Origin: Candidatus Levyibacteriota bacterium | GTDB taxonomy: Bacteria; Patescibacteriota; Microgenomatia; Levybacterales; UBA12049 | NCBI GenBank assembly: GCA_016182235.1 | Contig: JACOXT010000005.1 | Location: forward strand, 677-64,676 | DNA length: 64,000 nt | Direction: 5' to 3' | Shown: positions 3,198 to 48,517 of the stretch, piece after piece | How the letters are laid out: the number at the start of each line of letters is the position of its first letter | Numbering within the stretch: the stretch's first letter is position 1 | Notes under the pieces: model-generated | The model's database searches: none | Seen by the model: the letters and a program-made list of their open reading frames with translations, nothing else | What the model was told of the DNA's origin: nothing | Translations under genes and position numbers: made by a program

Positions 3198-3210
3198 TAA
3201 AGTTGTTATT

Positions 3211-3242: not shown

Positions 3243-3268
3243 TTGGTTTTTACTTTACCTTCGCATAA
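3215..3268 (+). CDS. Phe-rich leader peptide MKQYSNITIFGFYFTFA (pheM-like)
   Basis: ATG 3215, TAA 3266-3268; 4 Phe + 1 Tyr codons in the last 9 codons; stop codon abuts attenuator segment A. Confidence 0.6.
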   Translation: MKQYSNITIFGFYFTFA

Positions 3269-3344
3269 GCGGAGGTTGAGTTTAATAGAATAAACATTCA
3301 ACCTCCGGGTGTACTGAAAGGTGCATCAAAGCGGAGGTTTTTTT
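3269..3344 (+). promoter_or_regulatory. three-segment transcription attenuator (antiterminator A:B versus terminator B:C)
   Basis: A cggaggttga 3270-3279; B tcaacctccg 3298-3307; C cggaggtt 3332-3339 followed by T7; A:B and B:C are mutually exclusive. Confidence 0.6.
3300..3344 (+). terminator. intrinsic terminator of attenuator 1
   Basis: aacctccg (3300-3307) pairs with cggaggtt (3332-3339), inner tgtac/gtgca helix, then seven T (3338-3344). Confidence 0.55.
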
Positions 3345-3464
3345 ATGCAGACCTTGTCAAGCGTAAGCGAGACTTAGAGCTGCATAATCCCGCCGAAGTC
3401 CAAAAGGACGAAGGGGGATGTTTATAAAATTGAACTGAGTTCGGTGAAAAGGAGGTGAAAATAT

Positions 3465-3725
3465 ATGTCAGTTGAAAGAAGATGGAGAATGCCAATTCCA
3501 AGACCTTATGTATTAGAGAATGATGTCAAACCAGTTAAGTTAGATTATCATTCAGACAACATTCCTAAATCGCATAGAACTCTCTCAAAGAAAAAACGCT
3601 ATGGCTTTAAAGAAAACTTTCGGCAAGGACTAAGACTGTATGGGGGTAATGTAAGGGTTGATGTTGACCTCACGCAATTGCGACTTAGTCCAACTGTACT
3701 ATTTGGAAAAAGTCCTAATTCATAA
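3465..3725 (+). CDS. hypothetical small basic protein (86 aa)
   Basis: strong Shine-Dalgarno aaaggaggtg 7 nt upstream of ATG 3465, which is rare in this window; no family recognised. Confidence 0.45.
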   Translation: MSVERRWRMPIPRPYVLENDVKPVKLDYHSDNIPKSHRTLSKKKRYGFKENFRQGLRLYGGNVRVDVDLTQLRLSPTVLFGKSPNS

Positions 3726-3776
3726 AAGTCTAAAAACCATTTCTTTAACGTGAAAAGAGGGTAGTTTTGTGTTATT

Positions 3777-3826
3777 CTAAAAGTATGGAAGAAAGCCTGA
3801 TGCAGATCAAAAACTCTGCGGTTTGA
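3777..3826 (+). pseudogene. duplicated 5' fragment of pheS (upstream 9 nt plus first 13 codons, then stop)
   Basis: 36 nt tatggaagaaagcctgatgcagatcaaaaactctgc identical to 8010-8045; ctaaaagtatg also shared with 7987-7997; copy 1 lacks the 17 nt ataatcttatatttatg of the real locus. Confidence 0.8.
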
Positions 3827-7978: not shown

Positions 7979-8011
7979 TGCAATAACTAAAAGTATGATA
8001 ATCTTATATTT

Positions 8012-9049
8012 ATGGAAGAAAGCCTGATGCAGATCAAAAACTCTGCTGTTTCAATGATAATTGAGGCAGAGGATCAGAAAGAACTTGAGGAAATCAAGCT
8101 CCAATTCTTGGGAAGAAGCGGAAAATTAACTCTCGCAATGAAGGGAATTACCAAACTTCCCACAGGAGATAGAAGAGAGGTTGGTCAGCTTGCAAACGAG
8201 GTCAAAAGAGTTCTTGAAGAATCTATCAACGAACGAAGCAATTCGCTTAAGACTCAAGAGTCAAAAAAAAGGCGCGAAAAAATTGACATAACCAATCCAG
8301 GAGTAAGACCTGACATTGGCCATATTCACCCAATGTCTCAAGTTCTTTACGAAGTAGTTGATGTATTTAAGGGAATTGGGTTTCAGGCGGCTGACGGACC
8401 AGAAATAGAAACCGATCATTACAATTTCGAGATGTTAAATATACCTTCTGACCATCCAGCAAGAGATACACAACAAACACTTTATCTTGATACAAGGCAG
8501 AGCAAAGTCACGCCAGGGGAAATAATTCTACGAACGCAAACTTCAAGTATGCAGGGAAGAATCATGGAAAAAGTAAAACCTCCTATAAGAATAGTTGTTC
8601 CAGGGAAAAATTTTCGATACGAGCAGGTTGATGCGTCTCATGGATTTGAATTTTGGCAGGTTGAAGGATTTGTGGTTGACTCAAATGTAAGACTAACTGA
8701 CCTATTCGGGACAATTGAATATGTGCTCAAAAAATTAATGGGGGAGAAAACTAAAATAAAATTTGCTACGACTAATTTCCCATTCGTTGAGCCCGGAGTT
8801 GATACATATATTTCATGTACTGTTTGTAACGGACGCGGATGCAGTTTTTGTAAATATAGCACTTGGAGTGAAATTATGCCTGCCGGAATGATCCATCCAA
8901 ATGTCCTTAAGGCAGTTGGATATGATCATCAAAAAGTGGCAGGCTTTGCCTTCGCAATCGGGCTTTCAAGACTGGTAACGCTAAGGTATCAAATGGATGA
9001 TTTAAGACTATTGACAAATCCAGATCTAAGAATTTTGGAACAATTTTAA
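8012..9049 (+). CDS. pheS: phenylalanyl-tRNA synthetase alpha subunit
   Basis: HPMSQV, SDHPARDTQQTLYL, LRTQTSSMQ, FRYEQVDASHGFEFWQVEG, GFAFAIGLSRL. Confidence 0.95.
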   Translation: MEESLMQIKNSAVSMIIEAEDQKELEEIKLQFLGRSGKLTLAMKGITKLPTGDRREVGQLANEVKRVLEESINERSNSLKTQESKKRREKIDITNPGVRPDIGHIHPMSQVLYEVVDVFKGIGFQAADGPEIETDHYNFEMLNIPSDHPARDTQQTLYLDTRQSKVTPGEIILRTQTSSMQGRIMEKVKPPIRIVVPGKNFRYEQVDASHGFEFWQVEGFVVDSNVRLTDLFGTIEYVLKKLMGEKTKIKFATTNFPFVEPGVDTYISCTVCNGRGCSFCKYSTWSEIMPAGMIHPNVLKAVGYDHQKVAGFAFAIGLSRLVTLRYQMDDLRLLTNPDLRILEQF

Positions 9050-28187: not shown

Positions 28188-28200
28188 CAAGGTCCGACCT
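28188..28200. repeat. REP palindrome aaggtcCgacctt (copy 1, immediately upstream of the RAYT start)
   Basis: perfect 6+1+6 palindrome. Confidence 0.8.
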
Positions 28201-28871
28201 TGCTCTGTAATATATATCCTATGCCTGCCATAAATTCTGTCAAAATTTACGTTGAAAATGGCTATTATCACATTTACAATCGGGGAATTGATAAACGAGA
28301 AATTTTTATAGACCACAAGGATTATATGGTTTTGCTTAGTCTTTTGAAGCGATATCTTGTGCCTTGGGAAAATAGCAAGGTCCGACCTCGTTATAGGATA
28401 GATCTTCATGAAAAAATTCAGCTAATCTCATATTGTCTCATGCCCAACCATTTTCATCTTATGATGAAACAATTCACGAAAGACGCGATTACAGAATTTA
28501 TGCGAGCTTTAACCAATAGCTACGTACTATACTTTAACTCACGGTATGAACGAATTGGACCTCTTTTTCAAGGAAGATATAAGGCCGTTCTTATCGAAAA
28601 GGAGTCATACTTTCTTCATCTTACTCGCTATATTCACACAAATCCGCTGGATCTTGGCTTTACAAGGTCGGACCTTGCAAAGTATAGGTATTCGAGTTAC
28701 GGGGAATTTATTGGAGAAAGAAAGACAGAATGGATTCACTTTGGGGAAATATTAGATTATTTTAAAAGCAAACAAAAAATGAGCGAGCAAGATATACTTT
28801 CGTATCAAAGTTTCGTAGAAGACTCGATAGGGGATTCAAAAGAAATTCTTGAAACACTAAGTATTGATTGA
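28200..28871 (+). CDS. REP-associated tyrosine transposase (RAYT; IS200/IS605 TnpA-like Y1 HUH transposase)
   Basis: YHIYNRG, LMPNHFHLMM (HUH), LFQGRYK, LTRYIHTNPL (catalytic Tyr region), YRYSSYGEF; single gene, no tnpB partner; flanked by REPs. Confidence 0.85.
   Translation: MLCNIYPMPAINSVKIYVENGYYHIYNRGIDKREIFIDHKDYMVLLSLLKRYLVPWENSKVRPRYRIDLHEKIQLISYCLMPNHFHLMMKQFTKDAITEFMRALTNSYVLYFNSRYERIGPLFQGRYKAVLIEKESYFLHLTRYIHTNPLDLGFTRSDLAKYRYSSYGEFIGERKTEWIHFGEILDYFKSKQKMSEQDILSYQSFVEDSIGDSKEILETLSID
28377..28389. repeat. REP copy 2 (aaggtccgacctc, one mismatch) inside the RAYT ORF
   Basis: encodes ..SKVRPRY.. Confidence 0.7.
28663..28677. repeat. REP copy 3 (caaggtcGgaccttg) inside the RAYT ORF
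   Basis: perfect 15-nt palindrome; encodes ..TRSDLAK.. Confidence 0.8.
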
Positions 28872-28876
28872 TTGTC

Positions 28877-28949
28877 CTGCAAGGTCGGACCTTGTATATG
28901 AGAGAATACAGCTTTCCTCTTGAAAACCCTAATTAGGCCCCTAATAAAT
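28877..28949. repeat. 73-bp REP-containing module, copy A
   Basis: ctgcaaggtcggaccttgtatatgagagaatacagctttcctcttgaaaaccctaattaggcccctaataaat; includes REP copy 4 (28880-28894), hairpins tgtat..ataca and attag-gccc-ctaat. Confidence 0.8.
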
Positions 28950-29017
28950 CCATTACTTATTTATTGTACCATTATTTATAAGAGTCAGACTCCTTAGAAT
29001 TGTTTCTATTTCAAGCG

Positions 29018-29089
29018 CTGCAAGGTCGGACCTTGTATATGAGAGAATACAGCTTTCCTCTTGGAAGCCTAATTAGGCCCCTAATAAAT
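29018..29089. repeat. 72-bp REP-containing module, copy B
   Basis: same as 28877-28949 except cttggaagcc versus cttgaaaaccc; includes REP copy 5 (29021-29035). Confidence 0.8.
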
Positions 29090-29231
29090 TCAAGAAAAAA
29101 ACAGGAGTCAACATGTCAAAAATTTAAATCAGCAGGTATCTAGGCTATTTCACCTTTCAGGTGGCAAAGACACAAATAAACAAACAACATTTGAGCCGAT
29201 TATAGAAACTTATTCTTAGAGGATATTAAAC

Positions 29232-29847: not shown

Positions 29848-31056
29848 CTATTGGATAGTATTTGTGAGTTGATAAATCGGCATTATGATAGAGAATACCA
29901 GAAACGCGACTCCAATACCCAAAGCTACCATAATGGCCGGTTCAAGGGCTGTTGTTAGTATTTTTACTGACTGGTCAACTTCGTTCTCGAAGTACTCCGA
30001 AGCCCTAACGAGTGTTTCATCGAGTTTCCCTGTTTGCTCTCCTATTTTGACGAGTTCCACAAGATTTTGCGGGAAAAGATTATAGATAGACATCGCATCC
30101 CCCATTGTTATGCCTTTTTCTATTCTCTTGGCGACATCCAAAACCGCATTTCTATAAAGAACATTTCCTGTGGCGTCCGATGCTTCTTTCAAAGATTCTA
30201 TAACAAGAGTGCCGGATCCCAGCATTGCCCCTAACGTTCTTGAAAATTCTGAAAGAATTGAGTTTTTTATAATTTTGCCAAAAATCGGCATTTTTAATAA
30301 GATGCCATCTATTACAATTTTGCCTTCCAATGTCCTATGCCAGCGCGTAAATAAATAAATGGAGATAATAATAATTCCCAAAACAATTGGCCAAAACATG
30401 ATAGTCCAATTTGAAAGAGTTATTAGTATTAGAGTAGGAAGAGGAAGTTCAACATTTAAGTTTTCATAAAGGCTCGAGAGCTGAGGAATTACAAAAATCA
30501 TCATAATAAAAGTTACAGCAATCATCATAGTAACAACTATAACAGGGTAGGCGAGTGCTGCCTTTATAGTCCCCTTAAGTTTCTGCTGTTTTTCCAGTGT
30601 ATCGGCAAGTCTGAGGAGCGCTTTGTCTAAAAGCCCCGAACTTTCTGATGCTCTTATTAGCGACACGTAGACTGGGGAGAAAATCTGCGGATACTTGGAT
30701 AAAGCCATAGAAAGACTCTTGCCTTCCTCAATGTCCGCTGTCATACTTTCTAAAACTTCTTTTAGAGCGTCGTTATTTACTTGATTTTTAATAATCTCCA
30801 AAGATCTGATAAGTGTAATCCCGGATGTAAGCATGGACGACAAATGCCTCGTAAATGCCACAATGTCTTTTGATTTAACGCGGCTTGAAAATATAGGAAT
30901 AAAATCCGATAATTTAGTTCCTTCTTGCCTTGATATTGTAATCGGAATAAAATCCTTGCTTCGAAGATATCCCGCCGCTTCTTTTTCGTCCCGCGCTTCA
31001 ATTAGTCCGTTTAGGAATTTGCCATCTCTGGTTACTGCCTTGTAATAAAGCGTCAT
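29848..31056 (-). CDS. pilC: type IV pilus platform protein PilC
   Basis: two GspF-type repeats, three TM regions, MTLYYKAVTRDGKFLNGLIEA N-terminus typical of PilC; track ORF (to 31110) extends into a palindromic element, ATG 31056 preferred. Confidence 0.9.
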   Translation of the reverse strand: MTLYYKAVTRDGKFLNGLIEARDEKEAAGYLRSKDFIPITISRQEGTKLSDFIPIFSSRVKSKDIVAFTRHLSSMLTSGITLIRSLEIIKNQVNNDALKEVLESMTADIEEGKSLSMALSKYPQIFSPVYVSLIRASESSGLLDKALLRLADTLEKQQKLKGTIKAALAYPVIVVTMMIAVTFIMMIFVIPQLSSLYENLNVELPLPTLILITLSNWTIMFWPIVLGIIIISIYLFTRWHRTLEGKIVIDGILLKMPIFGKIIKNSILSEFSRTLGAMLGSGTLVIESLKEASDATGNVLYRNAVLDVAKRIEKGITMGDAMSIYNLFPQNLVELVKIGEQTGKLDETLVRASEYFENEVDQSVKILTTALEPAIMVALGIGVAFLVFSIIMPIYQLTNTIQ

Positions 31057-31075
31057 AAGTAATATTGCACATACC

Positions 31076-31147
31076 GTCATTCTGGCTTGCCCAGAATCTC
31101 TCAGTGTCATGGGGATTCTGGATGCGCCTTCGGCTTACCAGAATGAC
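31076..31147. repeat. 72-bp nested palindromic element between pilT and pilC
   Basis: four mutually complementary arms: gtcattctgg 31076-85, ccagaatc 31091-98, gattctgg 31114-21, ccagaatgac 31138-47. Confidence 0.7.
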
Positions 31148-31165
31148 GAGAAAATCATAGTAGTT

Positions 31166-32233
31166 TTATTTAACCAATCTCAGAAAATCTTCCTGATGCA
31201 AAGAATAACTTTTTCCAACTTCCAAAGATATACTTCCGGACAATACTAGAGCCGATAATGAAGAATCCAGAGTAATCATTCCTTTGTCTTTGGATGTCTG
31301 TATAACCGAGTCTATAAGGTGTGTTTTTCCCTCCCTTACTATACTTGCCACAGCAGGCGTGCCAAGAAGAACCTCAACTGCCGGAACTCTTCCTCCATTT
31401 ATCATTGGCAGCAAACGCTGACTAACTATTCCTTTAAGAGTGGCCGCCAGCTGAATTTTTATCTGGGACTGCTGACTGGCTGGAAAACTATCTATTATTC
31501 TATCTATACTCTGAGAGGCCGAGTTCGTATGAAGACTTGAAAATACCAGATGACCTGTTTCAGCGATAGTAATAACAGTTGCCATTGTTTCAGGGTCCCT
31601 CATTTCTCCTACCAAAACCACATCCGGATCCTCCCTTAAAGCGGATCTTAGAGCAAAGTCCCAGGAATGAGTATCTTGATTCATTTCTCTTTGGGAGATT
31701 ATGCTTTTCCCGTTTGGATACACATATTCTATAGGGTCTTCTATAGTTAAAATATGAACCGCTCTATTAAGATTGATTTCGTTAATTATTGAGGCAATAG
31801 TTGTTGATTTTCCATGACCCGTCGGGCCTGTAACCAAGATTAGTCCTTGCTTCAACTCCGAGAAAGAGTGGAGAATGTTGGGCATATGGAGGTCTTCTAT
31901 TGTTAGAATAGACGGGGGGAACAAACGAAACGCGCCGGATATATATCTCCTTTGATAATATAAATTAGCTCGGAACCTTCCCAAATTGCCATATGCTCCT
32001 CCGCCAAAACCAAAGGAAAAATCCAATTCCTTATTGGCAAGTAGAAGCTCCTTTTGAGATGGGGTTAAAAGCGAAAAAACCATTATCTCAATGCTCTGAG
32101 GAGTCAGCGGAGCATGACCCGCCACATATTCAAGTGCGCCATCTACCCTGATGGTTGGAGGGATTCCAGCCAAAAGATGTAGGTCCGACGCGCCTCTTTT
32201 AATTGTTACCTTCAAAAGTTCCTGTATTTCCAT
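31166..32233 (-). CDS. pilT: twitching-motility retraction ATPase PilT
   Basis: GASDLHL, GPTGHGKSTT (Walker A), ILTIEDPIEY, VVLVGEMRD, GHLVFSSLHT. Confidence 0.92.
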   Translation of the reverse strand: MEIQELLKVTIKRGASDLHLLAGIPPTIRVDGALEYVAGHAPLTPQSIEIMVFSLLTPSQKELLLANKELDFSFGFGGGAYGNLGRFRANLYYQRRYISGAFRLFPPSILTIEDLHMPNILHSFSELKQGLILVTGPTGHGKSTTIASIINEINLNRAVHILTIEDPIEYVYPNGKSIISQREMNQDTHSWDFALRSALREDPDVVLVGEMRDPETMATVITIAETGHLVFSSLHTNSASQSIDRIIDSFPASQQSQIKIQLAATLKGIVSQRLLPMINGGRVPAVEVLLGTPAVASIVREGKTHLIDSVIQTSKDKGMITLDSSLSALVLSGSISLEVGKSYSLHQEDFLRLVK

Positions 32234-35180: not shown

Positions 35181-36433
35181 GTGATAAGTAAACTCAAAAA
35201 ATTACTTTATTTTCCAGTTGCCCAATATTTTAGATTTTTTGCAAACATACAACTTGGGAAGTGGAAGCCAAGGATAATTGTTATAACAGGATCAAGCGGG
35301 AAGACAACTTTACTTCATCTTATCGAATCTCAAATTGGGGAAGAAGCTCGCTATTCTCATAACGCAAACAGCAGCTTCGGAATTCCATTTGATATCTTGG
35401 GATTAAAGCGTACAAAATTAACGCTTGATGAATGGCCATATCTTTTTCTGAAAGCTCCGTTTAGAGCTTTCAAGAAATCTTACAAAGAAAAACTTTATGT
35501 TGTTGAGGCAGATTGCGATAGACCAAATGAAGGTAAATTCTTGGCAAGCTTACTAAAACCAGAGGTTACGCTTTTGACAAACGTGGGAAGAACACATAGT
35601 CAAAATTTCGACTATCTTGTGGCAAATAAAAAATTCTCTTCAGTTGAGGAGGCGATTGCTCATGAGTTTGGTTATTTTCTAGAACACACGTCTGATTTAG
35701 TAATTTTAAATTCCGACAATGAATTGATAAGAAAAGAGTCCCACAGATCAAAAGTAAAAATTAAACATGTTAGCCTAACGAACTTAGCCAGTTATAAAGT
35801 GTCCAATGACCATACAGAGCTTAAAATTAATACTAAAGATTATTTGATTAAAGCATTGCTTCCAAAAGAAGCATCAATCTCTATTCAAATGACTCTTGAT
35901 TTACTTGAATTTCTAAGAATCAAGCTTGATTTTTCTTTCTCAAAGTTTAGCCTTCCACCTGGAAGGTGTAGCCTCATGAAAGGGGTTCGGGATACTACTA
36001 TAATAGATAGCTCTTACAATGCGACACCGGATGGGGTAAAGTCTATTCTCTCGATGTTTGATAAATATCCAAGCAATGGCTGGTTTTGGGAGATATGATT
36101 GAGCTTGGAGAGGAAGAAAAAGAAGAGCATGAGAAACTCGCCGACGTAATCGCAACAATGAGTTTAGAAAAAATTGTACTAGTTGGCCCAAGGGTATCAA
36201 AATACACGTATCCCAAATTAAAACAGATGGGAACATTGGAAAAGTTTCTTATGCCAAAAGATGCCTTAAATTATTTATTAAACAAGTTAGAGGGCGGGGA
36301 AACAATACTTTTCAAAGGTGCAAGGTTTTTGGAAGGGATTATAGAACATCTGCTCGCAAACAAAAATGATATTGAGAAATTATGCAGACGAGAAAAAATC
36401 TGGCAAGAAAGGAGAGAAAAGTGGGGACTATGA
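35181..36433 (+). pseudogene. MurF-like Mur ligase, split into two overlapping ORFs by a 1-nt frame change
   Basis: ORF1 35181-36098: ITGSSGKTT (P-loop), VVEADCDRPNEG, IIDSSYNATP; frame shifted by -1 from about 36065: SKQWLVLGDMIELG..VLVGPR (ORF2 36086-36433). Together one Mur ligase; the break could be real, an assembly error or recoding. Confidence 0.65.
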
Positions 36434-37161: not shown

Positions 37162-38325
37162 ATGAATATATTTAACTCCCTTGGCTCAAACTACAATTTG
37201 AAATTTGTTTTATCATCTCTTTTTGCAAATGGTAGCGATAAAGACCGTCAAGATCTTATTCATCTTCTTGAAAAAAAATATAATGGCAAAGCCATACTAT
37301 TATATAAGGGCAGAGAAGCACTCACTCTTGCTATTAAGACTCTTAACCTTCCCCCAAAAACAGAAGCTGCTATAAATGGATTTACATGTTTTGCAGTGTA
37401 TAAAGCTATTGAGAAGGCTGGCTATAAACCAGTTTGCCTTGATCTTGACTCCGATAAATTTGATCTAAACTTTAGCACTTCAGTGCTTGAGGCAGAAGTC
37501 AAAAAAAACCCAAATTTAAAAGTAGTAATTGTACAAAATACGCTTGGGTATCCATGCGATATCGAAGGTATCCTTGAAATTTGCAAGAAAAAAAACCTTG
37601 TCTTAATTGAAGATTTAGCCCATTGTGTAGGAACAAAATACTCCAACGGAAAAGAGGCGGGGACAGTTGGACCTATTGCGGTGTTATCTTTTAGCCAAGA
37701 CAAGGTCATCGATGCGGTTTCCGGAGGAGCTTTAATTATAAGAGAAAGAACTTTAGCTTCGCAAGGCGAGGCCTTGCAGAGTAAAAAGATCAATTTCAGA
37801 CAACAATTAAAAGACAAATTTTATCCAATACTTACTTACAAAATTAGAACATTTTATAGTTTTGGATTAGGAAAACTCCTTCACTTTCTCCTAAAAAAAT
37901 TAGACCTTTTATCAAAGCCTATGGAAGAAAATTTATATGAATTACTTTCTCTTCCTAATTGGTATTGTTATTTAGCCATGATTGGGTTTAATAATTTGTC
38001 TCAAAATCTAAATCACAGAAGAAGAATTGCCCAAATTTACATAGACAATTTAAACAAAAGCGCACAATCAAAAGAAATCGCGCAAAACTTAGATTTATCG
38101 TCTAACTTAAGATTTCCAATTTTTGTTGAGAAACGAGCACAGTTATTAGAATATCTAAAAGACTACGGCATTCATGTTTCAGATATATGGTACGAAGATG
38201 TTTCGCCCGATTGCCCGAACGCACAAAAAGTCTCTCGCAAAGTTCTTAATTTACCAACTCATATCAATGTCAGCGAAAGAGACGCAAGGCTAATCTGCGA
38301 AAGGATTAATGAATTGATCCAATGA
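37162..38325 (+). CDS. DegT/DnrJ/EryC1/StrS-family PLP-dependent aminotransferase-like protein
   Basis: GREALTLAIKTL, INGFTCFAVYKAI, LIEDLAHCVG, VLSFSQDKVI (PLP Lys), LNLPTH. Confidence 0.75.
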   Translation: MNIFNSLGSNYNLKFVLSSLFANGSDKDRQDLIHLLEKKYNGKAILLYKGREALTLAIKTLNLPPKTEAAINGFTCFAVYKAIEKAGYKPVCLDLDSDKFDLNFSTSVLEAEVKKNPNLKVVIVQNTLGYPCDIEGILEICKKKNLVLIEDLAHCVGTKYSNGKEAGTVGPIAVLSFSQDKVIDAVSGGALIIRERTLASQGEALQSKKINFRQQLKDKFYPILTYKIRTFYSFGLGKLLHFLLKKLDLLSKPMEENLYELLSLPNWYCYLAMIGFNNLSQNLNHRRRIAQIYIDNLNKSAQSKEIAQNLDLSSNLRFPIFVEKRAQLLEYLKDYGIHVSDIWYEDVSPDCPNAQKVSRKVLNLPTHINVSERDARLICERINELIQ

Positions 38326-39338
38326 TAGCAAAACCGATAATAGATAAAAAAACCTGGGAATCTTTCCTGGATCTTCATGAAGAAGCAAACTTTTTGCAAT
38401 CATGGTATTGGGGAGAATTTCATAAAAGTCTAAGTAACGAAATTCAGCGAATGGGATTTTATGAAAATAATAAGCTTGTTGGCGTTATGCTTTCTATTGT
38501 TGAAAACGCGAAGCGCGGGCGATATCTAGCAGTTCCAGGAGGACCAATTATCGATTGGACAAGGTCCGACCTTGTCGAGCATTTCGTGCAGGAATGTAAA
38601 AAGATTGCGAAAACATACAAGTGTGTTTTCGTAAGAGTCCGCCCTCAGCTTGTTTCAGATGACTTTTCGAAAAGCTTGTCTAAAAGACAAGGATTTACTA
38701 ACGCCCCAATGCACTTACACGCTGAGTTAACATCACAACTTGATATAAGAAAAACCGAAGATGAACTTCTAGGTCAAATGAGAAAAACAACCAGATACGA
38801 GATTAAAAAAGCAATTAATTTAGGTATAAAAGTAGTTGCCTCCAAAGACCCCGGTCAAATAAAAGACTTTTATGATTTACAGATTGAAACCTCAAAAAGG
38901 CAAGGATTCATACCATTTTCCTACAAATATTTATATGAGCAATTTAAAATATTTGCGCTTAATGATAAAGCGGTTTTATATACAGCTTATTATGACAGAA
39001 AAATTCTTGCTCAGGCTTTTATAATTTTTTATGGGCAGGAAGCTGTTTATCATTATGGGGTAAGTACAGAGGAAGGGAGAAGATATCCTGGCGCCTATTT
39101 AATACAATGGGAGGCAATTAAAGAAGCACAGAAAAGAGGAATGACGCGATATAACTTTTGGGGGGTTTCTCCTGAGATGAGCAAAAACCATAGGTTTAGA
39201 GGTTTATCTCTTTTCAAAAGAGGCTTTGGAGGACAAGATATAGAATATCTTCATGCACAAGATTTAATAATAAATTACCCAAGATATATTATTAACTACG
39301 TAGTCGAAACCATAAGAAAAAAAACAAGAAACGTTTAA
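38322..39338 (+). CDS. FemAB-family peptidoglycan peptide-bridge transferase (FemX/MurM-like)
   Basis: FLQSWYWGEF, TRYEIKKA, YHYGVSTEEGRRYPGAYLIQWEAIKEAQKRGMTRYNFWGV. Confidence 0.85.
   Translation: MIAKPIIDKKTWESFLDLHEEANFLQSWYWGEFHKSLSNEIQRMGFYENNKLVGVMLSIVENAKRGRYLAVPGGPIIDWTRSDLVEHFVQECKKIAKTYKCVFVRVRPQLVSDDFSKSLSKRQGFTNAPMHLHAELTSQLDIRKTEDELLGQMRKTTRYEIKKAINLGIKVVASKDPGQIKDFYDLQIETSKRQGFIPFSYKYLYEQFKIFALNDKAVLYTAYYDRKILAQAFIIFYGQEAVYHYGVSTEEGRRYPGAYLIQWEAIKEAQKRGMTRYNFWGVSPEMSKNHRFRGLSLFKRGFGGQDIEYLHAQDLIINYPRYIINYVVETIRKKTRNV
38558..38576. repeat. REP copy 6 (gacaaggtc-c-gaccttgtc, 19-nt perfect palindrome) inside the FemAB-family ORF
   Basis: same core as the RAYT-flanking palindrome, 9.7 kb away; encodes ..WTRSDLVE.. 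Confidence 0.8.
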
Positions 39339-42775: not shown

Positions 42776-45274
42776 ATGCAAATTGGTAAATTACAACAAA
42801 CTGGAATTAGCGCAGAGGTCAAGAGGGCATACCTTGACTATGCAATGTCTGTTATTGTTTCCCGCGCGCTTCCTGATGTTAGAGATGGACTTAAACCAGT
42901 CCATAGACGTATTCTTTTCGCGATGCACGAGTTAAATCTAACGCACAACGCGAAATATGCAAAATCAGCAAAGATTGTTGGGGAGGTAATGGGAAAATAC
43001 CATCCTCATGGAGATTTACCAATATACGATGCATTAGTTCGCTTGGCTCAGGATTTCTCGATGCGTTATCCTTTGGTTGATGGCCAAGGAAATTATGGCT
43101 CAACTGATGGAGATCCGCCGGCTGCTATGCGTTATACAGAAGCGCGTCTGGCCGCAATCACCGCCGAGATGCTTTTGGATTTGGATAAAGAAACAGTTAG
43201 CCATCTGCCGAATTTTGACGCGACGCTTCAGGAACCGGCATATCTTCCTGCCAGACTCCCCAATCTTCTTTTGATGGGGTCTGAGGGTATCGCGGTTGGT
43301 ATGGCTACAAAAATTCCTCCTCACAATCTTGGTGAATTGGTAGACGCGATTATTTTTACGATTGGCAAAACAAAAGTATCAAAATCGTTGAATGGTGAAT
43401 CAAAATCTTTAACGCTGACGAGTAACGTCACTGTTGGTGAGCTCTTGGAATATATTAAAGGCCCGGATTTCCCAACGGCCGGGGCAATTTATGACATTTC
43501 TGAAATTACAAATGTGTATACAACCGGACGGGGAAGAATAATTATCCGAGGACGCGCAGAGATCGAAGATATAGGGCAGGGTAAATCGGCAATTATTATT
43601 ACCGAACTCCCTTATCAAGTCAACAAAGCTCTTATGGTTGCTCGTATTGCTGATTTAGCCCGTGAAAAGAAGATAGAAGGAATCTCGGATCTAAGGGATG
43701 AATCTGACAGACACGGAATAAGAGTGGTTGTGGAACTCAAGCGTGACACCGCGCCAAAAAGAGTATTGAATAACCTATTTAAACACACGAGTCTTCAATC
43801 AATTTTTCCCGCTAATATTGTTGCTTTGGTTGACGGTACACCTCAAACGTTAAATCTTAAAACTATTCTTGAGGAATATCTTAAACATAGATATATTGTT
43901 GTCACCAAACGTTCCGAATTTGAGTTAAAGCAGGCCAAGGCAAGGCTTCATATTCTTGAGGGACTAAAAACTGCAGTCGATCAAATAGATGCTGTTATAA
44001 GAACAATTCGTGAATCCAAAGACCAAGATTCCGCAAAGAAGAATTTGATCATTAAATTTAAACTTACCGAGATCCAAGCGGTTGCGATTTTGGATATGCA
44101 GCTTCGCCGACTCGCGGCTTTGGAACGGCAAAAAATAGAAGACGAGCTTATCATGATAAAAGAAGCAATTGCTTATTTGGAAGACCTGCTTTCTCATTCA
44201 GAAAAAATACTAAGCGTAATCAAAGAAGAATTGAAAGTTCTAAAAGAAAGGTATCAGGACCAGAGGCGCACAAAGGTATATAAAAGTAAAGTCGGAGAGT
44301 TTTCCGATGAAGATCTTATTCCAAATGAATCAACGGTTATAACTATTACCGATACCGGATATATAAAGCGCCAAAGCCTCAGTAGTTTCAGAGTCCAGCA
44401 TAGGGGAGGAAAAGGAGTTAAGGGAATGACTACCAAAGAGGAGGATGGAATTTTGAATATTCGCTATGCGCAAACCCATGATAATATTTTGTTTTTTACA
44501 AACAAAGGAAAAGTCTACCAGCTCAGGGCCTTTGAAATTGCGGAGTCCCAAAGAACAAGTAAGGGCACCGCCATTGTGAATCTTATCAATATAGAACAAA
44601 ATGAGAGAGTCGAATCCTTTATAAATTACAGCGTGGGAAAAGGAAGCGAAGAGTTCCCATATAAATATGTGTTTCTTACCACCAAAAATGGGACTGTTAA
44701 AAAGACCGCGTTATCAGAATTTGAAAATATAAGGAGAAATGGGATTATCGCAATTAAACTAGACAAAGGAGATGAGCTTGTGTGGAGTAAGTTAACCAAC
44801 GGCGATAATGAAGTTATTCTCACGACTCACGACGGAAAGGCAATAAGATTTTCTGAGAAGTCTGTAAGACCTTTGGGCAGAAGTACCACAGGAGTTCACG
44901 GGATAAAGCTAAAAGAGGGCGACCAAGTAACGGGAATGGACATTATCAAAAAATCAGATAAAGCAGACCTCCTTACAATAATGGAGAATGGGCTGGGTAA
45001 AAAAACTTCTGTCGACCAGTTCAGAGGACAAACTAGGGCCGGACAAGGCGTAAAAGTCGCAAAGGTAACATCGAAAACAGGAAAGGTCGCATTCGCTCAG
45101 GTAATTCCGCCAAATTGCAAAAGCTTAATTATTACATCCAAAAAAGGACAAGTCGTAAAGCTTGAAATTTCTTCAGTACCAAAACGTTCTCGAAACACAC
45201 AGGGAGTGTTTTTAATGAGATTCTCAAACAAAACACCCGACCATATAACTTCTGCAACTTGCATTGAAGAATGA
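42776..45274 (+). CDS. gyrA: DNA gyrase subunit A
   Basis: [44 protein letters not shown] (catalytic Tyr), C-terminal beta-pinwheel repeats; track start TTG 42755 lies in the heptad array, ATG 42776 preferred. Confidence 0.95.
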
Positions 45275-46131
45275 AAATCAATGGATCGGAAATCGCAAAT
45301 AAGATTCACATCGAACTTCGAAAAAAGGTAAAAAAGCTAAAAGAGAAAAAAATCACGCCCCATCTTGCGGTAATTCTCATCGGCAGTGATCCCGCATCAA
45401 CTGCGTATGTTCGGCAAAAAGAATTAAAATCAAAAGCAATTAGTGTTAATACAACAATAGCAAAATTTCCTTCCGGTGTCTCCCAAAAAAATATTTTGAA
45501 AACAATTCAGCAATATAACAATGATAACAATATTCACGGAATTATTGTTCAGCGTCCTCTGCCTTCGCATATTGATTCGAATGTAATCTCAAAATCCATA
45601 GATCCCAAAAAGGATGTGGATGGCTTTCACCCAAAATCCAAATTTCAACCACCTCTCGCTCTGGCGGTATTGAAGATTTTGAAAAATATATTCGTCCACC
45701 TTCGAGGTGGGGTTGCGCCTGCGGCACACCTCGAAGGTGAATTTCGTGAATGGTTAATCCTCCAAAATATTGTCGTTATTGGCAAGGGTGAAACCGGTGG
45801 TAAACCTGTAATTGAAATGCTTAAAAAAATAGGAGCAAAGCCTTTGATTGTCGACAGTAAAACTCAAAATCCCCCTAACATAACTAAAACTGCAGATATA
45901 ATAATCTCTGCGGTTGGCAAAGAAAATACAATAAAGCCAGAAATGATCAAAAAAAATTCTATTTTAATTAGCATTGGTTTGTCAAAAGGAAAAGACGGAA
46001 AACTTCACGGGGATTATGATGAAGACAAGATCAAAAACATTGCATCCTTTTACACCCCAACCCCAGGAGGAGTAGGCCCCATCAATGTAGCTATGCTTTT
46101 GAAAAATTTAGTAAAAGCGTCCGAAAGTTAA
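45271..46131 (+). CDS. folD: bifunctional methylenetetrahydrofolate dehydrogenase / methenyl-THF cyclohydrolase
   Basis: [40 protein letters not shown]; carries an in-frame 44-bp GC-rich element. Confidence 0.9.
45696..45739. repeat. 44-bp GC-rich hairpin element, in frame in folD
   Basis: ccaccttcgaggtggggttgcgcctgcggcacacctcgaaggtg; 13-bp arms caccttcgaggtg / cacctcgaaggtg; exact reverse complement of 48008-48051. Confidence 0.9.
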
Positions 46132-46445: not shown

Positions 46446-47405
46446 ATGGATAACCCACAAAAAATTAATGGTGACTTCAAAGGAAAAGATATTGTTTCTC
46501 TTGATCAATTCTCCAAAAAAGATATCTATATTCTCTTCTCTAATACATCCAAAATGAAGAATCTCGTCCAAAAAAAAGGAGGTTCAACTCTACTTAAGGG
46601 TAAAATTATGTGCGCCATATTTTATGAACCATCTTCAAGAACTTTTGGGTCTTTTATTACTTCTATGCAACGTTTGGGAGGAGGATTTATCCCTTTACAA
46701 GGAATGGGAAATTCTTCTGTTGCTAAAGGAGAAACTTTAGAAGACACTATGCAAACATTTTCCTCATATAGTGATGTCATTGTCATTCGTCATCCAGAAA
46801 GAGGAACGGCAAAAATCGCAGCAAATGCTACAGAAATTCCCGTTATTAATGCCGGTGACGGAATAGGCGAGCACCCAACGCAAGCACTTTTAGATCTTTA
46901 TACCATTCAAGAAGAATTTGGAAAACTTGATAACTTAACTGGCGTTTTCGCGGGTGACATGCTTCATGGACGAACAGTAAAATCACTTCTTCGCGGTCTT
47001 TCGCTTTTCAAGAATAACACCTGCTATTTATTGTCCCCAAAAGAATTAAAGCTTTCAAGGGAAGATTTTAACGATTTCCAAAGAAGAGGGATAAAAATTA
47101 TTGAAATTAAAAATTATAGCGATATCCCCAAAAATGCTCATTTTTGGTACTGGACAAGAATTCAAAAAGAACGATTTGAAAATTTCAAAGATTATGAAAA
47201 AGTAAAGAATATTTTTATATTAACAAAACGTCTATTAGACACTTATGGAAATTCCAAAATGATTCTTATGCACCCTTTGCCAAGAGTAAATGAAATAGAA
47301 AAAGAAATCGACAGTGATACGCGAGCGGTTTACCTAAAGCGTCAGATGAAAAACGGAATGTATTTAAGAATGGCGCTTTTGGCATTAGTCTTGGGAAAAA
47401 TATGA
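46446..47405 (+). CDS. pyrB: aspartate carbamoyltransferase catalytic subunit
   Basis: FYEPSSRTFGSF, HPTQALLDLYTI, LMHPLPRVNEI; track ORF begins at 46323 but the homologous region starts at MDNPQK (ATG 46446). Confidence 0.9.
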   Translation: MDNPQKINGDFKGKDIVSLDQFSKKDIYILFSNTSKMKNLVQKKGGSTLLKGKIMCAIFYEPSSRTFGSFITSMQRLGGGFIPLQGMGNSSVAKGETLEDTMQTFSSYSDVIVIRHPERGTAKIAANATEIPVINAGDGIGEHPTQALLDLYTIQEEFGKLDNLTGVFAGDMLHGRTVKSLLRGLSLFKNNTCYLLSPKELKLSREDFNDFQRRGIKIIEIKNYSDIPKNAHFWYWTRIQKERFENFKDYEKVKNIFILTKRLLDTYGNSKMILMHPLPRVNEIEKEIDSDTRAVYLKRQMKNGMYLRMALLALVLGKI

Positions 47406-48517
47406 TTGGAAAACTTATTCTGGAGGATGCTTCGGAATTTGAAGGCATAAGCTTAGGAGCTCCTCGCTCAATTTCTGGCGAGGTAGTTTTCTCAACAGGA
47501 ATGGTAGGATATCCAGAAAGTTTAACTGATCCTTCATACAAAGGACAAATTTTAATATTTACTTATCCTTTGATTGGAAATTACGGAATTCCCGACAAGA
47601 AGTATTGGGAGTCGGATAAAATCCAAGTCTCAGGATTTATCGTCTCAAATTATATTGATACTCCTTATCATCAAGAAATGACTTTGACTCTAAGAAAATG
47701 GGCAGTTAAAGAGAACGTACCTTTTCTTGAAATTACAGATACAAGATTATTAACTCAAAAAATAAGGACAAAAGGAACAATGCTCGGGAAAATAATCACT
47801 AAGGACAATATTAATTTTTATGATCCAAATAAAGAAAACCTTGTCGCCCAAGTTTCAACAAAAAAAGTTATTCAAAAAGGCAACGGTAAAAAAACGGTTA
47901 TTTTAATAGATTGTGGAGCAAAACAAAACATAGAAAGATCTTTGTTGAAAAGGGGAGTAAGAGTCATAACTGTTCCGTGGAATTTCGATCCATTCGACCC
48001 GAAGGTACACCTTCGAGGTGTGCCGCAGGCGCAACCCCACCTCGAAGGTGGCAGGCTGAAGCAAAGCGAAAGCCATGACTCCTTCGAGGTGAAATTCGAT
48101 GGGATTGTCGTCTCCAATGGTCCGGGTGACCCGAAAATGGCAACAAAAACAATCGAAACCATCCGAAAAGCTCTTGCCTCCAAAATCCCAGTTCTTGGAA
48201 TTTGCCTTGGACATCAATTACTTGCATTGGCGGGAGGAGGGGATACCCAAAAATTAAAATTTGGCCACAGAAGCCAAAATCAGCCTTGCGTATTGGAAAA
48301 AACAAAAAGGTGCTATATCACAACTCAAAACCATGGTTTTGAAGTTTCTAAAATTCCCAAGGGATTTCATAAATGGTTTACGAACGCAAATGATAATTCA
48401 AATGAGGGCATAATCCACCAAAAACTCCCATTTATGTCAGTGCAATTTCATCCTGAAGCCGCCCCCGGCCCCGAAGATACAGGATGGATATTCGACTATT
48501 TCCTGGAAAAAATATGA
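47402..48517 (+). CDS. carA: carbamoyl-phosphate synthase small (glutaminase) subunit
   Basis: GEVVFSTGMVGYPESLTDPSY, GICLGHQLLALA (catalytic Cys), FGHRSQNQP, QFHPEA; carries an in-frame GC-rich insertion. Confidence 0.92.
   Translation: MIGKLILEDASEFEGISLGAPRSISGEVVFSTGMVGYPESLTDPSYKGQILIFTYPLIGNYGIPDKKYWESDKIQVSGFIVSNYIDTPYHQEMTLTLRKWAVKENVPFLEITDTRLLTQKIRTKGTMLGKIITKDNINFYDPNKENLVAQVSTKKVIQKGNGKKTVILIDCGAKQNIERSLLKRGVRVITVPWNFDPFDPKVHLRGVPQAQPHLEGGRLKQSESHDSFEVKFDGIVVSNGPGDPKMATKTIETIRKALASKIPVLGICLGHQLLALAGGGDTQKLKFGHRSQNQPCVLEKTKRCYITTQNHGFEVSKIPKGFHKWFTNANDNSNEGIIHQKLPFMSVQFHPEAAPGPEDTGWIFDYFLEKI
48008..48051. repeat. 44-bp GC-rich hairpin element, in frame in carA (inverted relative to the folD copy)
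   Basis: caccttcgaggtgtgccgcaggcgcaaccccacctcgaaggtgg, 44/44 identical to the reverse complement of 45696-45739; extra arm copies at 47999-48007 and 48083-48093. Confidence 0.9.

What the first reader, a model, noticed from the sequence alone, without database searches (positions are those of the whole stretch)
45696..45739. Identical 44-bp GC-rich hairpin element inserted in frame in folD and, inverted, in carA
folD 45696-45739 (ccaccttcgaggtggggttgcgcctgcggcacacctcgaaggtg) is the exact reverse complement (44/44) of carA 48008-48051. The element has 13-bp perfectly complementary arms (caccttcgaggtg / cacctcgaaggtg). Because of this symmetry both orientations are stop-free in the frames actually used, and both give related peptides: [16 protein letters not shown] in FolD and [16 protein letters not shown] in CarA. 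Two unrelated essential enzymes 2.3 kb apart carrying the same foreign 44-mer in opposite orientation is hard to explain except by a mobile palindromic element that can insert into ORFs without inactivating them.
Basis: seen in the sequence. Interest (0 to 1): 0.82.

Follow-up and report, generated by a model that had tools for sequence, protein, structure and literature searches.

The report
In-frame REP-doublet hairpins in CPR genes
The identical 44-base hairpin in folD and carA is real and is a copy of a tiny mobile palindromic repeat (a REP doublet of the kind spread by RAYT transposases) that is common in Microgenomates/CPR bacteria and, unusually, sits mostly inside protein-coding genes, where it is read through as a short extra surface loop.

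Summary
In detail: 45696-45739 is the exact reverse complement of 48008-48051, with none expected by chance. The repeated unit is 43 nt: 13-nt arm, 17-nt loop, 13-nt arm. Each arm is itself a small palindrome, CACCT-NNN-AGGTG. The carA insertion is 84 nt (48008-48091) and carries a third arm.

The same arms occur in more than 130 places in CPR metagenomes and genomes. 79% lie in long open frames of unrelated proteins, in two reading frames, with lengths quantised to keep frame. Orthologous FolD, CarA and TsaD genes exist with and without the insert, and the two arms co-vary between genomes.

Y1/IS200-like, RAYT-like transposase genes in other CPR contigs are flanked by this palindrome. The window has its own RAYT-like gene (28200-28871), flanked by a different palindrome. 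AlphaFold models place both inserts in low-confidence surface excursions.

My best reading is a REPIN-like non-autonomous element, mobilised in trans and tolerated in permissive loops. The kind is known (REP/REPIN-RAYT, intragenic REPs, Rickettsia RPEs). The CPR setting, the 13-nt untagged REP and the mainly intragenic lifestyle appear undescribed. Mobility and translation are inferred, not shown.

The parts
45697..45739 (+). REP doublet (REPIN-like hairpin) inside folD. Arm CACCTTCGAGGTG is at 45697-45709, the 17-nt loop GGGTTGCGCCTGCGGCA at 45710-45726, and arm CACCTCGAAGGTG at 45727-45739. It encodes FolD residues 143-156 ([14 protein letters not shown]).
   Evidence: The loop belongs to a conserved 17-nt loop family. 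The AF2 insert region has pLDDT 75-79.
48008..48091 (+). 84-nt insertion inside carA (residues 203-230). The REP doublet is at 48008-48050, with the same arms and the loop TGCCGCAGGCGCAACCC, which is the folD loop flipped. A 28-nt spacer follows at 48051-48078, then a third arm CTCCTTCGAGGTG at 48079-48091.
   Evidence: the empty ortholog L013 is exactly 28 codons shorter. AF2 pLDDT is below 50 at residues 205-228.
45271..46131 (+). folD host gene (bifunctional methylene-THF dehydrogenase/cyclohydrolase). The insert lies between the catalytic and NAD(P)-binding domains, at a site that is hypervariable among Microgenomates FolD homologs.
47402..48517 (+). carA host gene (carbamoyl-phosphate synthase small subunit). 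The insert lies in the loop PW(D/N)FDPF^KFD(A/G)IV of the glutamine amidotransferase domain, which is also a hypervariable hot spot.
28200..28871 (+). RAYT-like Y1 (IS200-like, HUH) transposase gene. The probable ATG is near 28221. The motifs MPNHFHLMM and RYIHTNPL are present. It is evidence that this genome has the enzyme class. Its own flanking palindrome differs from the folD/carA arms.
   Evidence: Pfam PF01797 scores 36.7 bits against a cut-off of 23. The best NCBIfam hit is REP-associated tyrosine transposase, at 43.7 bits against a cut-off of 80.
28188..29035 (.). Cluster of 15-nt palindromes CAAGGTC[C/G]GACCTTG around and inside the RAYT-like gene. Copies are at 28188-28202, 28376-28390 (1 mismatch, in frame), 28663-28677 (in frame), 28880-28894 and 29021-29035. 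This is a second REP family, the one cognate to the window's RAYT.
   Evidence: 7 matches against 0.08 expected.
38560..38574 (+). A further copy of CAAGGTCCGACCTTG, in frame inside a FemAB-like ORF (38322-39338, peptide WTRSDLV).
29151..29163 (+). Solo arm-like site CACCTTTCAGGTG. It is intergenic, 280 nt downstream of the RAYT-like gene.
35956..35968 (+). Solo arm-like site CACCTGGAAGGTG, in frame in ORF 35181-36098. The same arm variant forms a doublet in Daviesbacteria TsaD (L008).

Best explanation
The 43/44-mer is a REP doublet, that is a REPIN-like non-autonomous mobile element. It consists of two copies of a 13-nt palindromic site (CACCT-NNN-AGGTG; here CACCTTCGAGGTG and CACCTCGAAGGTG) in inverted orientation around a 17-nt spacer. 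Single-stranded DNA or RNA of the element folds into a long hairpin.

Such sites are the cognate flanking repeats of a clade of RAYT-like Y1 (HUH, IS200-like) transposases that is widespread in Microgenomates. The inferred mechanism is as follows.
1. The transposase recognises the small hairpins on single-stranded DNA.
2. It copies or moves the doublet in trans to new places, in either orientation, without a detectable target duplication.
3. New copies often land next to or into an existing copy. This would explain the three-armed carA insert and the nested inserts seen in other loci.
4. These genomes are about 80-90% coding, so most landings are in genes.
5. Selection keeps only landings that preserve the frame, lack stops and fall in permissive surface loops. 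The FolD interdomain loop and the CarA amidotransferase loop are such sites.
6. The survivors are translated as 14-28 extra, poorly ordered residues.

Within a genome the copies stay identical (44/44 here), through recent copying or gene conversion. Between genomes both arms change together.

Shown here:
- the repeat and the predicted hairpin;
- insertion status relative to orthologs;
- spread over unrelated genes and two reading frames;
- frame-quantised lengths;
- arm co-variation;
- association of this palindrome with RAYT-like genes in other contigs.

Inferred:
- that a RAYT moves the element;
- that the window's genome has or had the matching RAYT;
- that the inserts are translated and harmless.
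For: 1. Exact inverted 44-mer, 0 expected by chance. Strong predicted hairpins.

2. Each arm is a palindrome on its own. The long stem stops sharply at 13 nt: complementarity at the flanking position is 23/125.

4. Census: there are 124 non-redundant elements, and 98 (79%) lie in open frames of at least 150 aa. In the same loci, 81% of bases lie in such frames.

5. Host proteins are unrelated: FolD, CarA, NadE, TsaD, RecJ-like, Fmt and many others. Frame use is 53 HLRG..HLGG, 41 TSEV..TSEV and 4 in the third frame.

6. Lengths: 84 of 98 in-ORF elements have length 1 mod 3, against 13 of 26 outside ORFs.

7. Presence/absence at orthologous sites:
- CarA is empty in L013, L138 and L139, and filled in the window, L017 and L015.
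- The second TsaD site is empty in L001, holds a 34-nt element in L002 and a 43-nt element in L008.
- FolD is empty in L139, and the arm has decayed in L140.

8. Compensatory arm variants occur with the same loop: TCG/CGA (window), CCG/CGG (L017, L015) and TCC/GGA (L008).

9. The 17-nt loop is shared by 24 of 30 elements of that size, 11 in one orientation and 13 in the other.

10. RAYT-like genes are flanked by this palindrome:
- L040, both sides.
- L143, doublets on both sides.
- L039, a doublet inside the ORF and 3 sites downstream.
- L142 (Levybacteria), CACCTGGGAGGTG upstream and CACCTCCCAGGTG downstream.
Other RAYT-like genes each have their own palindrome: the window, L036, L094, L075 and L141.

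11. The window encodes a Y1 transposase.

12. The AF2 models are confident overall (pLDDT 92.9 and 84.7). The inserts score 75-79 (FolD) and below 50 (CarA).

13. The architecture matches the published REPIN definition: REP doublets in inverted orientation with a spacer, forming hairpins, flanking single-copy RAYTs (PMC3116915; bioRxiv 10.1101/119735).
Against: - The RAYT-like gene in the window is flanked by a different palindrome (CAAGGTCSGACCTTG). No RAYT with CACCT-TCG-AGGTG flanks was seen in the 64 kb, and the rest of the genome could not be read.
- The window's RAYT scores below the NCBIfam RAYT cut-off (43.7 against 80). It has no sequence-detectable relative with a solved structure.
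- Copy number is low: 2 doublets, one extra arm and 2 solo sites in 64 kb. Classical REPINs number in the tens to hundreds per genome.
- No GTAG or CGTC tag is present, and classical REPs are extragenic.
- The exact insertion boundaries could not be resolved for the 43-nt unit. A 43-nt insertion alone would shift the frame, so 2 nt must be gained or 1 nt lost.
- All collection hits were selected with fixed arms. Arm conservation and the predominance of doublets are therefore partly ascertainment.
- No transposition intermediate, transcript or peptide was observed.
Confidence: 0.72

Rival explanations
1. Transposase-independent spread. The palindromes are copied between sites by ectopic gene conversion or replication template switching. 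This would be seeded by microhomology between an arm and arm-like words already in the target, and arrays would grow or shrink by slippage between the nearly identical arms.
For: - Arms A and A' differ only in their centre base, so they also act as direct repeats.
- Empty sites carry arm-like words. TsaD in L001 has GGAGGTA where L008 ends in GAAGGTGTA. CarA in L013 has ACCTTG.
- Single-arm remnants (..HLEG..) are common at the CarA site.
- The loop is flipped between otherwise identical WWE3 repeats.
- Arms are homogeneous within a genome but differ between genomes.
Against: - It does not explain why this palindrome consistently flanks Y1 transposase genes, or why each transposase has its own cognate palindrome.
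- The microhomologies are short and could be chance.
- This process may well act alongside transposition rather than instead of it.
Confidence: 0.15
2. A functional, selected feature rather than selfish DNA. The hairpin would be an mRNA structure or peptide module kept for its effect on the host gene. One candidate effect is translational pausing at domain boundaries. The commoner arm variant contains CACCTCC (identical to the 16S rRNA anti-Shine-Dalgarno tail) paired with GGAGGTG (a perfect Shine-Dalgarno).
For: - Compensatory changes keep the stem in orthologous inserts.
- The FolD insert lies at the boundary between two domains.
- The elements persist across lineages whose host proteins are only 60-70% identical.
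- The SD/anti-SD resemblance is visible in the sequences listed.
Against: - Many close orthologs lack the insert altogether.
- One ortholog has an uncompensated decayed arm (L140).
- The elements are read in two frames, sit in unrelated proteins and also occur in intergenic DNA.
- Their distribution matches coding density, with no site logic.
- The inserts are predicted to be disordered.
- The window's own variant (CGAGGTG/GAAGGTG) weakens the SD match.
Confidence: 0.06
3. A classical MITE: a deletion derivative of a DDE-type insertion sequence, moved by that transposase through its terminal inverted repeats with a target-site duplication.
For: - The arms are perfect terminal inverted repeats.
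- In WWE3 genomes the hairpin sits inside a ~135-bp intergenic repeat with its own ends ATATAGC.../...GCTATAT.
- DDE and IS110-type transposase genes occur near folD in L140 and L015.
Against: - No target-site duplication is seen. The carA insertion is bounded exactly by arms.
- The units are 31-61 nt, far below usual MITE sizes.
- Each arm is itself a hairpin site, as for Y1-type elements.
- No DDE transposase was found flanked by these arms, whereas Y1 genes are.
Confidence: 0.04
4. Assembly or binning artefact: a chimeric join or a collapsed repeat placed the same 44-mer in two genes.
For: The sequence is a metagenome-assembled contig. Only one contig on record carries these exact FolD and CarA proteins. 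Read support could not be examined.
Against: - Both ORFs stay in frame and are homologous on both sides of the insert.
- Orthologous inserts at the same codon positions occur in independent assemblies from other samples: FolD in L005 and L140, CarA in L017 and L015.
- An independent Logan contig matches another part of the window at 100%.
Confidence: 0.02

Closest known systems
REPINs (REP doublets forming hairpins) with RAYT transposases of Pseudomonas and Enterobacteria (Bertels & Rainey 2011, PMC3116915; Bertels et al. 2017, bioRxiv 10.1101/119735)
   Same: - Two short palindromic REP units lie in inverted orientation around a spacer and fold into a hairpin.
- Spacer length falls into classes.
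- The same palindromes flank a Y1/HUH transposase gene, and each transposase has its own cognate palindrome.
- The element is non-autonomous and over-represented relative to chance.
   Different: - The REP unit is only 13 nt (15 nt for the window's other family). The whole doublet is 31-61 nt, against roughly 70-110 nt.
- There is no GTAG tag.
- About 79% of copies are inside genes, whereas classical REPINs are extragenic.
- Lengths are quantised by 3 (mostly by 6).
- Apparent copy number per genome is low.
- The hosts are CPR/Microgenomates.
- The transposase ORFs themselves carry in-frame cognate palindromes.
Intragenic GTAG/CGTC REPs and REP dimers (Di Nocera et al. 2013, PMC3733652)
   Same: REPs and REP dimers lie entirely within ORFs of known proteins and encode about 20-30 extra residues. 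The authors argue they are tolerated rather than functional.
   Different: There, intragenic copies are a minority of families that are mainly intergenic and carry a tetranucleotide tag. Here intragenic copies are the majority, there is no tag, and the same loops of FolD and CarA are hit repeatedly by different palindromes.
Rickettsia palindromic elements (RPEs; Ogata et al. 2000, recalled from memory and cited in PMC3733652)
   Same: Palindromic repeats are inserted in frame into many unrelated, functional protein genes of a small, AT-rich, gene-dense genome. They are thought to sit in surface loops.
   Different: RPEs are about 100-150 bp and no transposase has been linked to them. No sequence similarity to them was tested. 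They are confined to Rickettsia. The present element is 43 nt and is linked by context to Y1 transposases.
IS200/IS605-family elements and their miniature derivatives (TnpA Y1 transposases acting on subterminal hairpins in single-stranded DNA; established knowledge, PMC6006769)
   Same: The enzyme superfamily is the same (Pfam PF01797). Recognition is of small imperfect hairpins, and no target-site duplication is made.
   Different: IS200/IS605 ends are asymmetric (left and right hairpins with distinct cleavage sites), and the transposase moves itself in multiple copies. Here the gene looks single and immobile, and the short symmetric doublets are what is dispersed.

Membership tests
REP/REPIN-RAYT system | The basic unit is a short (imperfect) palindrome, the REP. 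| tested here: met
   Each arm is CACCT-NNN-AGGTG (in the C/G variant a 6+1+6 palindrome). It is sharply bounded at 13 nt and often extended by A..T.
REP/REPIN-RAYT system | [quoted passage not shown] | tested here: met
   Hairpins of -30 kcal/mol are predicted. There are 143 C-centre/G-centre doublets in the held loci, although the search pattern selected for doublets.
REP/REPIN-RAYT system | Preferred inter-REP distances, with the spacer less conserved than the REPs. | tested here: met
   Start-to-start distances cluster at 24, 30 and 36 nt. Element lengths of 37, 43 and 49 dominate. Loops are diverse, but recurrent families exist; 24 of 30 loops of 17-18 nt are alike.
REP/REPIN-RAYT system | The same REPs flank a RAYT gene. 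| tested here: inconclusive
   Met elsewhere: L040, L143, L039 and L142 carry CACCT-NNN-AGGTG sites on the flanks of Y1 transposase genes. Not met in the window: its RAYT-like gene is flanked by CAAGGTCSGACCTTG. The rest of the genome was not available.
REP/REPIN-RAYT system | The transposase is a RAYT: a Y1 HUH enzyme of the REP-associated clade, single copy. | tested here: inconclusive
   Pfam Y1_Tnp is above its cut-off. NCBIfam REP_Tyr_transpos is the best hit but below its cut-off, at 43.7 against 80. The HUH and Y motifs are visible. There is no PDB relative by sequence. Copy number per genome could not be tested.
REP/REPIN-RAYT system | High copy number or over-representation in the genome. 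| tested here: inconclusive
   The window has 7 arm sites against 0.63 expected, so the motif is over-represented. These comprise only 2 doublets, one extra arm and 2 solo sites in 64 kb.
REP/REPIN-RAYT system | Predominantly extragenic location. | tested here: not met
   98 of 124 non-redundant elements lie in open frames of at least 150 aa. This equals the coding fraction of the same loci, 81%.
REP/REPIN-RAYT system | A conserved GTAG (or CGTC) tetranucleotide at one end of the REP (PMC3733652). | tested here: not met
   Flanking bases are variable: A 61, T 31, C 29 and G 4 at position -1. Some RAYT-flanking copies have GTAA/TTAC next to the palindrome (L143), but this is not general.
Rickettsia palindromic elements (RPE) | In-frame insertion into functional protein-coding genes. 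| tested here: met
Rickettsia palindromic elements (RPE) | Element of about 100-150 bp belonging to the RPE sequence families of Rickettsia. | tested here: not met
   The unit is 43 nt, the hosts are CPR bacteria, and the named hits are all Microgenomates or WWE3. Sequence comparison with RPEs was not run.
MITE (DDE-transposon derivative) | Terminal inverted repeats plus a target-site duplication, with a related full-length IS. | tested here: not met
   Inverted repeats are present. No duplication is seen at filled against empty sites, and no IS with these ends was found. The only linked transposases are Y1-type.

The most novel reading that the evidence does not exclude
Microgenomates and related CPR bacteria carry a previously undescribed form of the REPIN-RAYT partnership.
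- The REP is a minimal, untagged 13-nt palindrome.
- The doublets live mainly inside protein-coding genes.
- Their lengths are quantised so that they are read through. They thereby act as a lineage-wide generator of short peptide insertions at recurrent hot-spot loops of essential enzymes, and even inside the transposase ORFs themselves.

A further, more speculative layer concerns the commonest arm. It pairs the 16S anti-Shine-Dalgarno sequence (CACCTCC) with a perfect Shine-Dalgarno (GGAGGTG). This hints at an interaction with translating ribosomes.
Probability: 0.45. Interest if true: 0.7.

Novelty: new variant of a known kind. Interest (0 to 1): 0.58.

Why it matters
REPs and REPINs are defined as extragenic, and their biology has been worked out almost entirely in Proteobacteria. 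These results suggest three things.

- Ultra-small, gene-dense CPR genomes host the same kind of transposase-repeat partnership, but with the repeats living in genes at about the coding-density rate.
- This gives a concrete, testable source for the many unexplained short insertions seen in CPR proteins.
- The element is a practical caveat for annotation, alignment and assembly of CPR MAGs. Identical 43-mers in different genes break de Bruijn graphs and inflate apparent divergence in loops.

The data also offer natural experiments in how much random peptide essential enzymes tolerate. FolD, CarA and TsaD each exist with no insert, or with one, two or three arms.

Finally, the cognate pairs of transposase and palindrome found here (at least six different palindromes) are ready-made substrates for biochemical tests of how RAYT-like enzymes recognise their hairpins.

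Tried and rejected
- Rfam, on the whole window at gathering thresholds and on four WWE3 loci at E up to 1: nothing relevant. No described RNA family accounts for the element.
- Stop-free in all six frames: true, but 13% of composition-matched shuffles share the property, so I dropped it as an argument.
- Viral contigs scanned for the arm pattern: 0 hits, so no sign of a phage vector.
- PDB sequence search with the window's transposase: no hit.
- Literature searches for the arm sequences, for palindromic in-frame elements in Patescibacteria/CPR, and for REP plus Candidate Phyla Radiation: nothing on this element. A survey of HUH endonucleases does not mention CPR.
- Extending the window to the rest of its 78.8-kb contig: one look-up found nothing, and the other returned only a 1.8-kb Logan contig identical to window 2014-3813.
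- Search for target-site duplications or exact insertion boundaries. The carA insert is bounded exactly by arms (84 nt). For the 43-nt unit the flanks of filled and empty orthologs are too diverged to decide.
- Stem extension beyond 13 nt: rejected.
- A protein-level motif (HLRG...HLEG as a functional peptide): rejected, because the same DNA is read as TSEV...TSEV or TFEV...TSKV in other genes and also occurs between genes.
- The similarity of the right flank between window folD and L009 nadE (AATTTYGTGAAT): noted but not pursued, and it may be chance.
Full report
**1. The observation**

The 44-mer at 45696-45739 is the exact reverse complement of 48008-48051. No further copy exists in the window at up to 3 mismatches, and none is expected by chance. 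It lies in folD (45271-46131) and carA (47402-48517). These belong to a gyrA-folD-pyrB-carA-carB block in a 37% GC genome. Database names for the identical proteins assign them to Candidatus Levybacteria (Microgenomates, CPR).

The arms are 13 nt and the loop is 17 nt. The predicted hairpins are far more stable than shuffles. All six frames are stop-free, but so are 13% of shuffles, so that point carries little weight.

Against the empty ortholog L013 (CarA 77% identical), the window has exactly 28 extra codons (48008-48091). The layout is arm, loop, arm, 28-nt spacer, third arm CTCCTTCGAGGTG.

**2. Both segments are insertions at hot spots**

In an alignment of 40 FolD homologs, the segment between LKILxxIF and [17 protein letters not shown] is hypervariable.
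- Some proteins have nothing there (P0078, P0079, P0103).
- Several proteins only 59-68% identical to the window's FolD share [15 protein letters not shown].
- Others carry different palindrome-derived peptides.

In 119 CarA homologs, 57 have a short loop at PWDFDPF^KFDAIV with no arm-like peptide. The other 62 have longer loops, and 43 of these contain arm-like peptides.

AlphaFold2 models are confident overall (mean pLDDT 92.9 for FolD, 84.7 for CarA).
- The FolD insert sits at the tip of a helical hairpin between the two domains, with pLDDT 75-79.
- The CarA insert is an unstructured loop, with pLDDT below 50 at residues 205-228.

**3. The element elsewhere**

Scanning one genome per species for the two arms with a 5-35 nt gap gave 12 loci. 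All are CPR by their record titles or, for four mislabelled ones, by gene content: Daviesbacteria, Beckwithbacteria, Curtissbacteria, Microgenomates OLB22, WWE3, and a Levybacteria-like MAG.

After removing duplicates there are 124 elements.
- 98 (79%) lie in open frames of at least 150 aa. In the same loci, 81% of all bases lie in such frames. The elements therefore do not avoid genes.
- Host proteins are unrelated: FolD, CarA, NadE, TsaD, RecJ-like, Fmt and many large unknown ORFs.
- The element is read in two main frames: HLRG...HLGG 53 times, TSEV...TSEV 41 times, and the third frame 4 times.
- This rules out a protein-level motif. It shows that the conserved object is DNA or RNA.

Element length is 1 mod 3 in 84 of 98 in-ORF copies, and mostly 1 mod 6 (37, 43 or 49 nt). 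Outside ORFs the figure is 13 of 26. This is what selection for frame preservation would give.

The window's 17-nt loop is not private. 24 of 30 elements with a 17-18 nt loop carry GTGTTGCGCCTGCGGCA within 3 mismatches, 11 in one orientation and 13 in the other. They occur in different genes and in both arm variants.

**4. Signs of mobility and of concerted change**

Orthologous sites occur in several states.
- CarA is empty in L013, L138 and L139, and filled in the window, L017 and L015.
- A second TsaD site is empty in L001, holds a 34-nt element in L002 and a 43-nt element in L008.
- The genome that supplies the empty CarA (CAYJRY01) nevertheless carries the element in its FolD (L005) and NadE (L009).

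Arms change together.

| Genome / locus | Arm pair | Where |
|---|---|---|
| window | CACCTTCGAGGTG / CACCTCGAAGGTG | folD and carA |
| L017 and L015 | CACCTCCGAGGTG / CACCTCGGAGGTG | L017: carA; L015: carA and folD |
| L008 | CACCTTCCAGGTG / CACCTGGAAGGTG | TsaD, with the same loop |

Decay also occurs. The FolD element in L140 has two uncompensated changes in one arm.

In WWE3 genomes the hairpin sits inside a ~135-bp intergenic repeat. In one copy the loop is flipped relative to conserved flanks, so the loop can invert between the arms. The 'opposite orientation' in folD and carA may therefore reflect either insertion orientation or a later flip.

**5. What kind of element**

Each arm is itself a palindrome (CACCT-NNN-AGGTG; in the common variant CACCTC-S-GAGGTG). 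The long stem stops exactly at 13 nt, whereas the arm's own palindrome is often extended by A...T. The element is therefore a doublet of a small palindromic site.

The window contains, at 28200-28871, a Y1 (IS200-like) transposase gene.
- Pfam PF01797 scores above its cut-off.
- The best NCBIfam model is 'REP-associated tyrosine transposase', though below its cut-off.
- It is flanked by, and contains in frame, a different 15-nt palindrome, CAAGGTC[C/G]GACCTTG.
- That palindrome also occurs in frame in a FemAB-like ORF at 38560.

Homologs of this transposase in the collected loci are each flanked by their own palindrome of the same design. Four of them are flanked by the arm of our element.
- L040: sites on both sides.
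- L143: doublets on both sides.
- L039: a doublet inside the ORF and three sites just downstream.
- L142 (Levybacteria): CACCTGGGAGGTG upstream and CACCTCCCAGGTG downstream.

The L040-type protein has more than 5,500 homologs at E up to 1e-10. Among the 120 best that are listed, all named ones are Microgenomates.

This is the architecture that defines REPINs and RAYTs: REP doublets in inverted orientation that form hairpins and flank single-copy Y1 transposases (PMC3116915; bioRxiv 10.1101/119735).

**6. Mechanism proposed**

A RAYT-like enzyme recognises the small hairpins on single-stranded DNA. It disperses the doublets in trans, in either orientation, without a target duplication. The carA insert is bounded exactly by arms, which fits this.

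In a genome that is 80-90% coding, most insertions hit genes. Only in-frame, stop-free copies in permissive loops survive, and these are translated as short disordered excursions.

Existing copies may attract new ones or seed gene conversion. Slippage between the near-identical arms adds or removes units. Together these would give:
- hot spots;
- three-armed arrays;
- nested hairpins (the L015 carA loop holds GGGACGTCAAACGTCCC);
- solo remnants.

The enzymatic steps, the existence of a matching RAYT in this particular genome, and translation of the inserts are all inferred.

**7. Comparison with what is known**

In-frame palindromic insertions are known from Rickettsia (RPEs). Intragenic REPs and REP dimers encoding 20-30 residues have been catalogued in several bacteria (PMC3733652). 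The kind of object is therefore not new.

The differences are:
- the minimal 13-nt untagged REP;
- doublets of only 31-61 nt;
- a distribution that follows coding density rather than being extragenic;
- length quantisation;
- recurrent hot-spot loops shared by different palindrome families;
- cognate palindromes inside the transposase ORFs at equivalent positions (window, L036, L039);
- the CPR hosts.

I found no paper on this in the library searched.

**8. Verdict**

The element is best filed as a new variant of the REP/REPIN-RAYT kind with an RPE-like intragenic lifestyle.

The main weaknesses are:
- the cognate transposase for the window's arm variant was not seen in the 64 kb;
- the collection hits were selected with fixed arms;
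- nothing was tested at the level of reads, RNA or protein.

Noticed in passing
window 28200-28871 and 28188-29092: A RAYT-like Y1 transposase gene is flanked by CAAGGTC[C/G]GACCTTG palindromes. Two copies lie in frame inside its own ORF (peptides NSKVRPRY and GFTRSDLAKY). Downstream there is a 52-nt direct repeat (28877-28928 and 29018-29069, 96% identical). Each repeat holds the palindrome plus a second one, ATTAGGCCCCTAAT.
   Followed up: partly
window RAYT ~aa 59 and ~aa 155; L036 8498 and 8811; L039 8046-8081: Different RAYT-like ORFs carry their own cognate palindrome in frame at equivalent positions, just before the HUH motif and after the catalytic Tyr motif. This could be hot-spot insertion or autoregulation. 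It is unexplained.
   Followed up: partly
window 2544-2637: A GC-rich stretch (up to 72% GC in a 37% GC genome) with small hairpins (GTCGCC-CAAG-GCGAC, CGCGTC-AGA-CGCG) encodes the C-terminal tail of IF3 (ERKGAQSPKATSSPASEPASDAAKRTGVET). It may be another palindrome-derived extension. An independent Logan contig (L144) is identical across it.
   Followed up: partly
window 31075-31148: A 74-nt hairpin with an 11-bp stem (CGTCATTCTGG...CCAGAATGACG) lies between a PilT-like ORF (31166-32233) and a PilC-like ORF (29848-31110). It overlaps the annotated 5' end of the latter.
   Followed up: no
window 3784-3824 and 8011-8051: A 41-nt direct repeat, 98% identical, with copies 4.2 kb apart. The Logan contig L144 ends just inside the first copy, as expected if it breaks assembly graphs.
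   Followed up: no
L003 4190-4330, L007, L010, L011, L049 (two copies 11 kb apart): In WWE3 genomes the same hairpin is the core of a ~135-bp intergenic repeat with ends ATATAGCAAC.../...GCTATAT. In L007 the 18-nt loop is inverted relative to flanks that are otherwise conserved.
   Followed up: partly
FolD homologs P0006-P0120 (variable loop); L138 9750-9800: The FolD interdomain loop carries many other palindrome-derived peptides in different lineages, for example TRSHLARLQGET, YTPRVEPQF, PSRWPNGLLEGG and TRSDLVKV...GRTS. The last corresponds to the window's own RAYT palindrome. L138 shows GCAAGGTCTCACCTTGC at the DNA level.
   Followed up: partly
L015 6932-7129 (carA) and 830-1024 (folD): The carA loop has a nested perfect hairpin, GGGACGTCAAACGTCCC, inside the 17-nt loop of the element. 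folD carries three to four arm copies. An IS110-family transposase lies between folD and pyrB in this contig.
   Followed up: no
arms of most metagenome copies (e.g. L017 1359-1401): The common arm variant contains CACCTCC, identical to the anti-Shine-Dalgarno end of 16S rRNA. It is paired with GGAGGTG, a perfect Shine-Dalgarno sequence, inside coding regions. The significance is unknown.
   Followed up: no
L002, L005, L009, L010 (records CAZKCV01, CAYJRY01, CAZGDO01): These MAGs are titled 'uncultured Gammaproteobacteria'. They carry Microgenomates-type genes and about 36-41% GC, and their FolD and CarA are closest to Levybacteria. The taxonomic label is probably wrong.
   Followed up: no
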